This document shows, one piece after another, positions 1,226 to 1,412 of a stretch of DNA of 7,490 bases. Under the pieces are notes generated by a model. It was not told the origin of the DNA. It did no database searches and worked only from the letters and a program-made list of their open reading frames with translations. The translations under genes were made by a program, and so were the position numbers. Each line of letters begins with the position of its first letter. The stretch's first letter is position 1. Source of the stretch: a virus (Duplodnaviria > Heunggongvirae > Uroviricota > Caudoviricetes). The DNA is taken from positions 1-7,490 of IMG/VR virus record IMGVR_UViG_2541047502_000013; one strand, given 5' to 3'.

Positions 1226-1412
1226 CCTTGTATATGGGTTAACCAGATAACCACGGGGAGCAGGTACCGGCATCCACGTTACAGACGGTCCCGGCAAAAG
1301 TGCCTGACCTGACCCCTATTAGCGGTTACCAGCGCCCCACCAGACCCGGTGACATCACCCCCCGGATCATGGACGACTGGGGGCAGTAATCATGCCGGGT
1401 CTGGCTGGCTAA
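1226..1412 (-). ncRNA. Candidate bridge RNA (guide ncRNA of IS110-type recombinases) in the left-end non-coding region; ends approximate
   Basis: About 190 nt of non-coding sequence between the predicted transcription start (~7 nt after TATAAT) and the transposase RBS. It contains a perfect 10-bp long-range inverted repeat (1340-1349 CCAGACCCGG / 1395-1404 CCGGGTCTGG) enclosing a 45-nt G/C-rich segment, plus further local stems. Position and size fit the IS110-subgroup arrangement in which the bridge RNA lies 5' of the recombinase gene. Not verified by a covariance model. Confidence 0.4.

What the first reader, a model, noticed from the sequence alone, without database searches (positions are those of the whole stretch)
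1311..1325. Left-end segment CTATTA (1316-1321) identical to the flanking target bases 1-6: possible target-guide footprint
The window + strand reads CTATTA at 1-6, immediately outside the IS right end, and CTATTA again at 1316-1321 inside the putative bridge RNA (RNA sense ...GCUAAUAGGGGUCAGG...). In IS621-type systems a short guide in the target-binding loop matches the bases flanking the core dinucleotide. A weaker match to the other flank also exists (CGGGGG in the RNA versus ACGGGGGCGGG at 1443-1453). A 6-mer match within ~190 nt has a chance probability of several percent per strand, so this is only suggestive.
Basis: seen in the sequence. Interest (0 to 1): 0.45.

Follow-up and report, generated by a model that had tools for sequence, protein, structure and literature searches.

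The report
ISEc20 bridge RNA donor guide
The repeated CTATTA is real, but window bases 1-6 belong to the insertion sequence ISEc20 itself, so the match is most likely the element's bridge RNA recognising its own right end (a donor guide) and not a target guide; this is an ordinary feature of a known system.

Summary
Window 1-1445 is ISEc20, an IS110-family element inserted in a lambda-like terminase gene. Its transposase lies on the minus strand. CTATTA occurs at 1-6 and at 1316-1321 as reported, but bases 1-6 are not target flank. In 20 copies at 17 sites they are followed by the same GCCC. The window simply starts about 5 nt inside the element's right end (RE). Restoring the missing bases extends the match to 9 nt (CCCCTATTA; RNA sense UAAUAGGGG = RE end TAATAGGGG).

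The segment lies on the 5' side of the second internal loop of a two-loop RNA. The loop-closing stems show compensatory changes in 34 relatives. It has the same sense as the RE end, as expected of an IS621-type left donor guide (LDG). In 65 related elements the LDG and RE change together (G/G 50, A/A 13, two exceptions; at least two clades).

The likely target guides are elsewhere: ACUGCCCCC at 1379-1387 and GGGGGG(UG) at 1356-1363. They fit the real target, (A)CTG followed by a C run.

Verdict: bridge-RNA footprint right, partner wrong. This is a new member of a known kind, of low interest.

The parts
1..20 (-). Right end (RE) of ISEc20, cut by the window edge. IS-sense it reads CATGCTTGACAACTTAATAG. 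The last 5 nt of the element (GGGCA; TGCCC on +) lie left of base 1. Bases 1-6 are part of the left-donor (LD) sequence matched by the LDG.
   Evidence: Bases 1-6 and the preceding GCCC are identical in 20 copies at 17 sites. The end ...TTGAC(A/G)A-N-ATAGGG(G/A)CA is conserved in related elements.
21..1217 (-). ISEc20 recombinase/transposase, 398 aa.
   Evidence: Pfam DEDD_Tnp_IS110 (6.9e-49) and Transposase_20 (7.3e-22). RefSeq annotates it as 'IS110-like element ISEc20 family transposase'. The Tnp domain aligns to the IS621 transposase 8WT6 (E=1.2e-14), with the SGSS serine motif aligned.
1218..1445 (-). Left-end (LE) non-coding region that encodes the putative bridge RNA. The RNA ends are not determined.
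   Evidence: Homologous LE found in 78 of 80 related loci. MFE -101.3 kcal/mol, z = -2.9. Two-loop consensus structure with covarying stems.
1313..1321 (-). Left donor guide (LDG), RNA UAAUAGGGG (RNA nt 130-138). The finding's CTATTA (1316-1321) is its 5' two-thirds. The family-wide pairing part is AUAGGGG (1313-1319). UA (1320-1321) is an extension seen in ISEc20 and the Leucobacter elements.
   Evidence: 9-nt same-sense identity with the RE end. It lies on the 5' strand of the second internal loop. LDG and RE covary: G/G 50, A/A 13, 2 exceptions, in at least 2-3 clades.
1275..1282 (-). Right donor guide (RDG), RNA GUAACG, followed by UG. It is the reverse complement of the LE terminus CGTTAC.
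   Evidence: Read from the sequence. Both the guide and CGTTAC are invariant in 34 relatives, so there is identity but no covariation test.
1379..1387 (-). Left target guide (LTG), RNA ACUGCCCCC, on the 5' strand of the first (target-binding) loop.
   Evidence: ISEc20 left flanks read ..(A)(C)TG plus a C run (G in 14 of 16, TG in 9 of 16 listed sites). Association with flanks across the family is modest (permutation 53/2000).
1356..1363 (-). Right target guide (RTG) GGGGGG plus a 2-nt handshake guide UG. The complement is CACCCCCC.
   Evidence: Equals the usual RE junction GGGG-CA-CCCCCC. In L079 the RTG is GGGGUGUG and the junction is CACACCCC. Handshake logic from PMC11208158.
1395..1405 (-). 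Target-binding loop, closing stem, 5' arm.
   Evidence: Pairs with 1339-1349. 8 of 15 pairs of this helix have compensatory changes.
1339..1349 (-). Target-binding loop, closing stem, 3' arm.
   Evidence: As above.
1322..1333 (-). Donor-binding loop, closing stem, 5' arm, immediately 5' of the LDG in the RNA.
   Evidence: Pairs with 1266-1277. 8 of 12 pairs of this helix have compensatory changes.
1266..1277 (-). Donor-binding loop, closing stem, 3' arm. It overlaps the last bases of the RDG in the single-sequence fold.
1287..1309 (-). Inner hairpin of the donor-binding loop, between the LDG and the RDG.
   Evidence: Centroid structure. 4 of 5 pairs are compensatory in relatives (helices 3-4).
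1413..1431 (-). 5' hairpin of the LE with UAUAAU in its loop. Role unknown; possibly a -10 element.
   Evidence: The hairpin is present but variable in relatives. No consensus sigma-70 promoter was found.
1440..1445 (-). LE terminus, the right donor (RD) CGTTAC. First bases of the element.
   Evidence: Invariant start of homology in the 76 loci aligned. Left flanks diverge upstream of the C run.
1446..1456 (-). Left junction. Inferred core CC (1446-1447) and left target flank (IS-sense ..TACCCGCC) in the terminase gene.
   Evidence: Occupied versus empty comparison at two other sites. Tandem-copy junctions. The register within the C run is inferred, not shown.

Best explanation
Window 1-1445 is ISEc20, an IS110-family element with its recombinase on the minus strand. 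The roughly 228-nt left end most likely encodes a bridge RNA with two internal loops. The segment 1313-1321 (RNA UAAUAGGGG, which contains the finding's 6-mer) is the left donor guide. It has the same sequence as the top strand of the element's right end (..TAATAGGGG-CA), so it would pair with the bottom strand of that end. On the 3' side of the same loop, GUAACG is complementary to the element's first bases, CGTTAC. Together the two guides would hold the donor: the RE-LE junction of the excised circle, or the two ends in place during excision. The first loop would hold the target, (A)CTG followed by a C run, through ACUGCCCCC and GGGGGG. The UG after the G run can pair with the donor's CA once the top strands are exchanged (a 'handshake'). 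Shown here: the element's boundaries, the repeat and its extension, the covarying stems, and the LDG/RE covariation. Inferred: that the RNA is made, that pairing is RNA-DNA, and that the core is CC.
For: (1) Bases 1-6 are internal to the element. They and the preceding GCCC are identical in 20 copies at 17 sites, and the element occurs in 2,229 of 5,426 E. coli genomes. (2) The match extends to 9 nt in L001, with 0.01 expected by chance. (3) Sense and position fit an LDG: same sense as the RE top strand, on the 5' strand of the second internal loop. The definition is in PMC11208160 and PMC11208158. (4) The stems that close both loops and the inner hairpin are supported: 20 of 32 pairs have compensatory changes, and 0 of 500 shuffles reach that. 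(5) The guide and the RE end, about 1.2 kb apart, covary in 65 related elements: G/G 50, A/A 13, off-diagonal 2. The A state occurs in at least 2-3 separate clades of a recombinase NJ tree. In the actinobacterial A group the match is 9 nt (AUAGGGACA). (6) The partner guide GUAACG is the reverse complement of CGTTAC. (7) The real target fits the other loop, and the L079 RTG variant matches its own junction. (8) With core CC, both handshake guides pair with the non-cognate base at position 7 and not with the cognate one, as reported for IS621. (9) The recombinase has the IS110 DEDD and Tnp domains and aligns to IS621. The supplement of Durrant et al. lists ISEc20 with ISSfl4 in the IS110 group with an LE non-coding end.
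Against: There is no transcript evidence, and no consensus sigma-70 promoter was found in the LE or at a tandem junction. Rfam 15 has no matching family. The guide's pairing stops 2 nt before the inferred core and does not cover it, whereas the IS621 LDG pairs through the first core base. The RDG side has a conserved U opposite core position 9 (U.C if the core is CC). The two 5'-most bases of the finding's 6-mer (UA) match the RE only in ISEc20 and the Leucobacter elements; most relatives have a mismatch there. RNAalifold can pair the LDG with the opposite strand of the loop (98% of cells pairable), although no pair has a compensatory change. The core register rests on homopolymer runs whose lengths vary between genomes.
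Confidence: 0.85

Rival explanations
1. One reading: 1316-1321 is a target guide in the target-binding loop, and 1-6 is the target flank it recognised.
For: Within the window alone, the 6-mer sits beside where an IS end could be placed. IS621-type guides do match flanks.
Against: Bases 1-6 plus 4-5 further bases are the same at 17 different insertion sites. Empty sites contain no CTATTA. The segment lies in the second loop, and the first loop matches the real target. The segment covaries with the RE end of related elements that sit in unrelated genomes.
Confidence: 0.02
2. Chance repeat with no function.
For: The 6-mer alone is within chance.
Against: The 9-mer has 0.01 expected occurrences. 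AUAGGG is invariant in all 34 aligned relatives, and the G/A change is concerted at both sites in several clades.
Confidence: 0.03
3. A protein-binding motif repeated in direct orientation at the RE tip and inside the LE (recombinase subterminal sites), recognised as DNA and not through RNA.
For: Two copies of ATAGGG(G/A) that change together would also be expected if one protein domain read both. RNA-DNA pairing is not demonstrated here.
Against: It would need the protein's specificity to co-change in each of at least 2 clades. The internal copy lies exactly on the 5' strand of an internal loop closed by covarying RNA stems. Its partner strand carries the complement of the other IS end. IS621 structures show RNA, not protein, reading these bases.
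Confidence: 0.05
4. The segment is conserved only because it pairs inside the RNA with the 3' strand of the same loop (a closed helix, not a guide).
For: RNAalifold pairs 4 of the 6 bases, and 98% of cells are pairable.
Against: None of these 18 pairs has a compensatory change, and shuffles do as well. The centroid of the single-sequence fold leaves the segment open. This reading does not explain the identity and covariation with the RE end. A weak closed state of the free RNA could coexist with guide function.
Confidence: 0.05

Closest known systems
IS621 bridge RNA / bridge recombinase (E. coli; Durrant et al. 2024, PMC11208160; Hiraizumi et al. 2024, PMC11208158)
   Same: A DEDD plus Tnp(Ser) recombinase. 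An LE-encoded RNA with a target-binding loop followed by a donor-binding loop. The left guides have the same sense as the left half-sites and the right guides are antisense to the right half-sites. A 2-nt handshake guide follows the RTG. No terminal inverted repeats were noticed in the end sequences examined; this was not searched systematically.
   Different: The protein is only distantly related: 398 aa against 326-328 aa, and only the Tnp domain aligns (E=1e-14). The inferred core is CC in a C run, not CT. The LDG pairs with about positions -3 to 5/6 and does not reach the core. A conserved U faces core position 9 on the RDG side. The natural target is a homopolymeric C tract, so LTG and RTG are complementary to each other.
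IS622 / ISCro4 (Perry et al. 2025, bioRxiv 10.1101/2025.05.14.653916)
   Same: The same architecture and handshake logic. Its structure 9T56 is also hit by the ISEc20 Tnp domain (E=2.6e-12).
   Different: It is a close IS621 relative with a CT core. ISEc20 belongs to another cluster (IS110, ISBma3, ISSfl4 and others) in the supplement of Durrant et al..
ISBma3 and unnamed relatives in Burkholderiales and Actinobacteria (loci L026-L097)
   Same: 73-82% identical recombinase. Homologous LE with the same two loops, the same RD (CGTTAC), LDG core AUAGGG(G/A) and C-run target.
   Different: The RE reads ..ACATAGGGGCA or ..CATAGGGACA, not ..TAATAGGGGCA, so the LDG-LD match is 7-9 nt in a slightly different register. 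The 5' hairpin differs.
IS1111-group seekRNA elements (Siddiquee et al. 2024; cited from my own knowledge, not read here)
   Same: RNA-guided DEDD/Tnp recombinases of the same family.
   Different: Their guide RNA is encoded at the right end, downstream of the recombinase. ISEc20 has only about 25 nt there, and Durrant et al. list it as an LE type.

Membership tests
IS110-family bridge-RNA system (IS621 type) | Recombinase with an N-terminal DEDD (RuvC-like) domain and a C-terminal Tnp domain carrying the catalytic serine | tested here: met
   Pfam PF01548 (6.9e-49) and PF02371 (7.3e-22). Alignment to IS621 8WT6 places ISEc20 RRSGSS on IS621 YESGSS. The individual DEDD residues were not checked one by one.
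IS110-family bridge-RNA system (IS621 type) | Long non-coding left end that folds into an RNA with two internal loops closed by stems | tested here: met
   228-nt LE. Fold. Consensus structure of 34 relatives. 20 of 32 stem pairs are compensatory, 0 of 500 shuffles reach this, and slid controls give 3-6.
IS110-family bridge-RNA system (IS621 type) | Left donor guide: the 5' strand of loop 2 has the same sense as the RE end and covaries with it | tested here: met
   9-nt identity. G/G 50, A/A 13, 2 exceptions. At least 2-3 clades.
IS110-family bridge-RNA system (IS621 type) | Right donor guide: the 3' strand of loop 2 is complementary to the LE start | tested here: inconclusive
   GUAACG is the reverse complement of CGTTAC. 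Both are invariant in all relatives, so covariation cannot be tested. A conserved U faces core position 9.
IS110-family bridge-RNA system (IS621 type) | Loop 1 guides (LTG, RTG) match the natural target flanks | tested here: met
   ACUGCCCCC and GGGGGG against 17 ISEc20 sites of the form ..(A)(C)TG-C run. The L079 RTG variant matches its junction. Family-wide association of the non-C part of the LTG with the flanks is modest (53/2000 permutations).
IS110-family bridge-RNA system (IS621 type) | Conservative recombination at a shared core dinucleotide, with no target duplication beyond the core | tested here: inconclusive
   Occupied versus empty comparison at the TerD and RtcB sites gives an insert of CGTTAC..GGGGCA plus CC. 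Tandem junctions read GGGGC(A/C)-CCC(C)-GTTAC. The register within the C run is ambiguous, and the run length varies between genomes.
IS110-family bridge-RNA system (IS621 type) | Handshake guides pair with positions 6-7 of the non-cognate DNA and not with the cognate DNA | tested here: met
   With core CC, the loop-1 UG pairs with donor C6A7 but its U does not pair with target C7. The loop-2 G pairs with target C7 but not with donor A7 (sequences; rule). This is an inference that depends on the core register.
IS110-family bridge-RNA system (IS621 type) | The RNA is expressed and is required for recombination, and it is reprogrammable | not testable with these tools
   No expression or activity data. 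Promoter scans were negative.
IS621/IS622 clade specifically | CT core and a close recombinase relationship | tested here: not met
   The junctions have C(C/A/T), never a conserved CT. Only the Tnp domain aligns to IS621 (E=1e-14). The supplement of Durrant et al. places ISEc20 in a different cluster.
Rfam RNA families | Match to a curated covariance model | tested here: not met
   cmscan of the whole window at E<=1 gives only a chance DicF hit in the terminase gene.

The most novel reading that the evidence does not exclude
The ISEc20/ISBma3/IS110-proper subgroup may use a variant bridge-RNA geometry. The donor guide would be offset so that it never pairs with the core. A conserved U.C mismatch would sit at core position 9. 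The target loop would be hard-wired to homopolymeric C tracts. Repeated insertion and excision within such tracts might contribute to the extreme poly-G/C expansions seen at 'empty' ISEc20 sites (about 21 and about 63 G), and to tandem arrays.
Probability: 0.15. Interest if true: 0.5.

Novelty: new member of a known kind. Interest (0 to 1): 0.22.

Why it matters
It corrects an annotation error that a window edge can cause: an IS end was mistaken for target DNA. It also gives a guide map for ISEc20, which is present in about 40% of complete E. coli genomes and often disrupts prophage genes, as it does here. The map covers the donor guides, the target guides, a probable CC core and a poly-C target. 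It predicts where the element can land, namely at (A)CTG followed by at least about 7 C. It also shows that the bridge-RNA rules worked out for IS621 carry over, with small differences in register, to a distant subgroup shared by Proteobacteria and Actinobacteria. Nothing here changes the known mechanism.

Tried and rejected
- **Rfam.** A search of the whole window found no bridge-RNA family, only a chance DicF hit.
- **Promoter scans.** Sigma-70 scans of the LE and of a tandem RE-LE junction found nothing. The idea that the conserved TTGACA in the RE and TACTTT in the LE form a junction promoter is not supported; the spacing would be 19-20 nt.
- **Fixing the core by counting C's.** Two sites agree on CC. 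The runs vary by 1-3 nt between genomes, and the terminase site does not reconcile: the intact allele is GCTGGGGGTGGTCGGG and a frameshifted allele is GCTGGGGCGGG. The register therefore stays an inference.
- **A 'short' circle junction GGGGCA|CGTTAC with core CA.** I considered it because both right guides are followed by UG. I rejected it as the main model because the tandem junctions carry 3-4 C's between CA and GTTAC and because it breaks the handshake rule.
- **LTG covariation with flanks.** The signal is only modest.
- **Intra-loop helices from RNAalifold.** They have no covariation support.
- **Literature.** A search for ISEc20 returned nothing on its RNA or target.

Full report
**What is in the window.** The ORF at 21-1217 on the minus strand (398 aa) carries the two Pfam domains of IS110-family recombinases, DEDD_Tnp_IS110 and Transposase_20. 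The rest of the window encodes the C-terminal part of a lambda-type large terminase, a portal protein and an S49 protease. megablast against 5,426 complete E. coli genomes finds window 1-1520 in 2,229 of them, annotated 'IS110-like element ISEc20 family transposase'. Two genomes carry the very same insertion in a terminase gene (L001).

**Checking the observation.** The 6-mer is not remarkable by itself: 3 matches in the window against 1.0 expected, and 9 of 200 shuffles reach 3.

The premise that 1-6 lie 'immediately outside the IS right end' is wrong. All 40 listed BLAST hits start at query base 1. I printed the junctions of 12 E. coli loci and 8 Shigella/E. coli loci, 17 distinct sites in all. 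In every one, CTATTAAG is preceded by GCCC, then T or G, then a G run, and only then by unrelated DNA. The window therefore begins about 5 nt inside the element.

In L001, the same insertion at 99.9% identity, the repeat grows to CCCCTATTA (window -2..6 and 1313-1321). That 9-mer has 0.01 expected occurrences, and 0 of 200 shuffles give two.

**Anatomy of the RNA.** In RNA sense (minus strand, from 1450 down) the left end folds with z = -2.9 into three parts:
- a 5' hairpin;
- a first internal loop closed by the stem 1395-1405/1339-1349;
- a second internal loop closed by the stem 1322-1333/1266-1277, with an inner hairpin at 1287-1309.

I collected 80 related loci with 73-99% identical recombinases, from Enterobacteria, Burkholderiales, other Proteobacteria and several actinobacterial genera. 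A homologous left end is present in 78 of them. An alignment of 34 distinct left ends (A2) gives the same two-loop consensus.

The closing stems and the inner hairpin are well supported. 20 of 32 pairs have compensatory changes, 0 of 500 shuffles reach that, and slid controls give 3-6. The 18 pairs that RNAalifold draws inside the two loops have no compensatory change at all, and shuffles do as well. These pairs are invariant, mutually complementary guide bases. They do not show that the loops are closed, but they do not exclude a weakly closed free RNA either.

**What the segment is.** UAAUAGGGG (RNA nt 130-138, window 1321-1313) is the first stretch of the 5' strand of the second loop. It has the same sense as the element's right-end top strand...CTTAATAGGGG-CA. 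[quoted passage not shown] On the 3' strand of the same loop, GUAACG (1282-1277) is the reverse complement of the element's first bases, CGTTAC (1445-1440). This is the expected right donor guide (RDG).

The strongest evidence is covariation between two sites about 1.2 kb apart. Among 65 related elements where both could be read, the seventh base of AUAGGG(G/A) in the guide and the matching base of the right end gave these counts:

| Guide base / RE base | Elements |
|---|---|
| G / G | 50 |
| A / A | 13 |
| other | 2 (L027, which has a degraded end, and L052) |

On a neighbour-joining tree of the recombinases the A state sits in at least two or three separate clades: Duganella, Pseudoclavibacter, and L043+L050. 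In the actinobacterial A group the match is 9 nt (AUAGGGACA).

Across the family the paired part is AUAGGG(G/A), often followed by C. The two extra bases in ISEc20 (UA, window 1320-1321) match the right end only in ISEc20 and in two Leucobacter elements. So four of the six bases in the finding belong to the conserved guide, and two are a lineage-specific extension.

**Where the target guides are.** Empty alleles show the natural target. In IS orientation the TerD-intergenic site reads ..TTTCTG-C7-TTT and the RtcB site reads ..AGACTG-C9-GCG. Across the ISEc20 sites listed, the left flank ends in G plus a C run in 14 of 16 and in TG in 9 of 16. The right junction usually reads GGGG-CA-CCCCCC. 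None of the true flanks contains CTATTA or TAATAG.

The first loop carries ACUGCCCCC (1387-1379) on its 5' strand and GGGGGG-UG (1363-1356; complement CACCCCCC) on its 3' strand. These are the likely LTG and RTG. One relative, L079, has RTG GGGGUGUG and a junction that reads CACACCCC. The Microbacterium group has GGUCCCCCC, and its flanks lack the G before the run. A permutation test of the non-C part of the LTG against the flanks is only modestly positive (53 of 2000).

Its cognate C run lies on the right side of the crossover, which is now at the other junction, outside the window.

**Core and handshake (inferred).** At both the TerD and RtcB sites, occupied minus empty equals CGTTAC...GGGGCA plus CC. 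Tandem ISEc20 copies exist on plasmid pO177B1 (two copies) and in the SMN197SH3 chromosome (three copies). Their junctions read GGGGCA-CCCC-GTTAC or GGGGCC-CCC-GTTAC, and the unit length is 1452-1453 nt.

With core CC, the UG after the RTG pairs with the donor's C6A7 but its U cannot pair with the target's C7. The G after the core-facing bases on the RDG side pairs with the target's C7 but not with the donor's A7. This is the rule found for IS621: handshake guides pair with the non-cognate DNA after top-strand exchange, and pairing with the cognate DNA at position 7 blocks exchange.

Three caveats apply:
- The register lies inside homopolymer runs whose length varies between genomes.
- A conserved U faces core position 9.
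- The LDG stops 1-2 nt short of the core, unlike the IS621 LDG.

The base after GGGGC is A or C in otherwise identical copies. The base before CGTTAC is C, A or T in relatives. This may reflect heteroduplex resolution near the core.

**Comparison with known systems.** The element works like IS621/IS622 and is listed with ISSfl4 in the supplement of Durrant et al. as an IS110-group element with an LE non-coding end. Some database records already call close relatives 'IS110 family RNA-guided transposase'. It is not a close IS621 relative. Only the Tnp domain aligns (E=1e-14), although the serine motif is conserved, and there is no CT core. Rfam has no model that hits it. A full-text search for ISEc20 found nothing about its RNA or target. 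I therefore file it as a new member of a known kind.

**Not shown.** Transcription of the RNA, its ends, RNA-DNA pairing and activity were not tested. No consensus sigma-70 promoter was found in the left end or at a tandem junction.

**Verdict.** The repeat is real and, once extended, non-random. The 'target flank' is the element's own right end. The segment is the left donor guide of the ISEc20 bridge RNA (confidence about 0.85). Interest is low, because this is the expected anatomy of a described mechanism, with minor differences in register and a poly-C target.

Noticed in passing
L016 (NZ_CP058571, TerD site) and L017 (NZ_CP148289, RtcB site); also H42, H43: Alleles without the IS carry very long poly-G tracts exactly at the ISEc20 target: about 21 G at the TerD site and about 63 G at the RtcB site, against 7 and 9 G in ordinary empty alleles. 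H42 and H43 are 14-16 nt longer than ordinary empty TerD alleles, like L016, but their tracts were not read. The three TerD long alleles have the flanks most similar (99.8%) to the occupied allele. They could be slippage, an assembly artefact, or a product of insertion/excision in the C run.
   Followed up: partly
L099 1808-1830 (plasmid pO177B1, NZ_CP024616); L100 1808-1830 and 3260-3282 (NZ_CP024056): Head-to-tail tandem arrays of two and three complete ISEc20 copies. The junctions read GGGGCA-CCCC-GTTAC or GGGGCC-CCC-GTTAC, and the unit length is 1452-1453 nt.
   Followed up: partly
L024 and L025 (Shigella/E. coli), L062 (Cupriavidus laharis): right junctions: The RE (..ATAGGGGCA) is followed directly by CGTTAC.. 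with no C run. The right flank therefore looks like the element's own left end (8 nt CGTTACTA in L062). This resembles the donor-arm 'half-match' insertions reported for IS621 (bioRxiv 10.64898/2026.08.31.748434).
   Followed up: no
window 1446-1480 and left of base 1; L015, L098: The terminase site does not reconcile simply. The intact allele reads GCTGGGGGTGGTCGGGTA. A closely related IS-free allele reads GCTGGGGCGGGTA and is annotated as frameshifted. The occupied flanks are GCTGGGGGG|IS|GGGGGCGGGTA, with one G fewer in L001. The short allele might be an excision scar or the pre-insertion allele.
   Followed up: partly
window 10-15 (minus strand TTGACA) and 1419-1424 (minus strand TATAAT): A perfect -35 hexamer is conserved near the RE tip (TTGAC[A/G] in nearly all relatives), and a perfect -10 hexamer sits in the loop of the first LE hairpin. 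In the circle or a tandem junction they would be about 37-39 nt apart. No consensus promoter was detected in either configuration.
   Followed up: partly
loci L026-L097: Recombinases 73-82% identical to ISEc20, with homologous bridge-RNA regions, occur in both Proteobacteria (Burkholderia, Duganella, Ralstonia, Cupriavidus, Pandoraea) and Actinobacteria (Microbacterium, Pseudoclavibacter, Cryobacterium, Leucobacter). This implies recent transfer between phyla. Many appear as IS-only contigs of about 1,456-1,465 nt.
   Followed up: no
window position -4 (T or G in other copies) and relatives' base before CGTTAC: Otherwise identical ISEc20 copies differ at the base after GGGGC (A or C in IS sense). 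Relatives vary (C/A/T) at the base before CGTTAC. These are polymorphisms confined to the bases next to the crossover.
   Followed up: partly
window 1657-1686, minus strand: Weak DicF-like Rfam hit (20 bits against a gathering score of 48, E=0.85) inside the terminase ORF. Judged to be chance.
   Followed up: no
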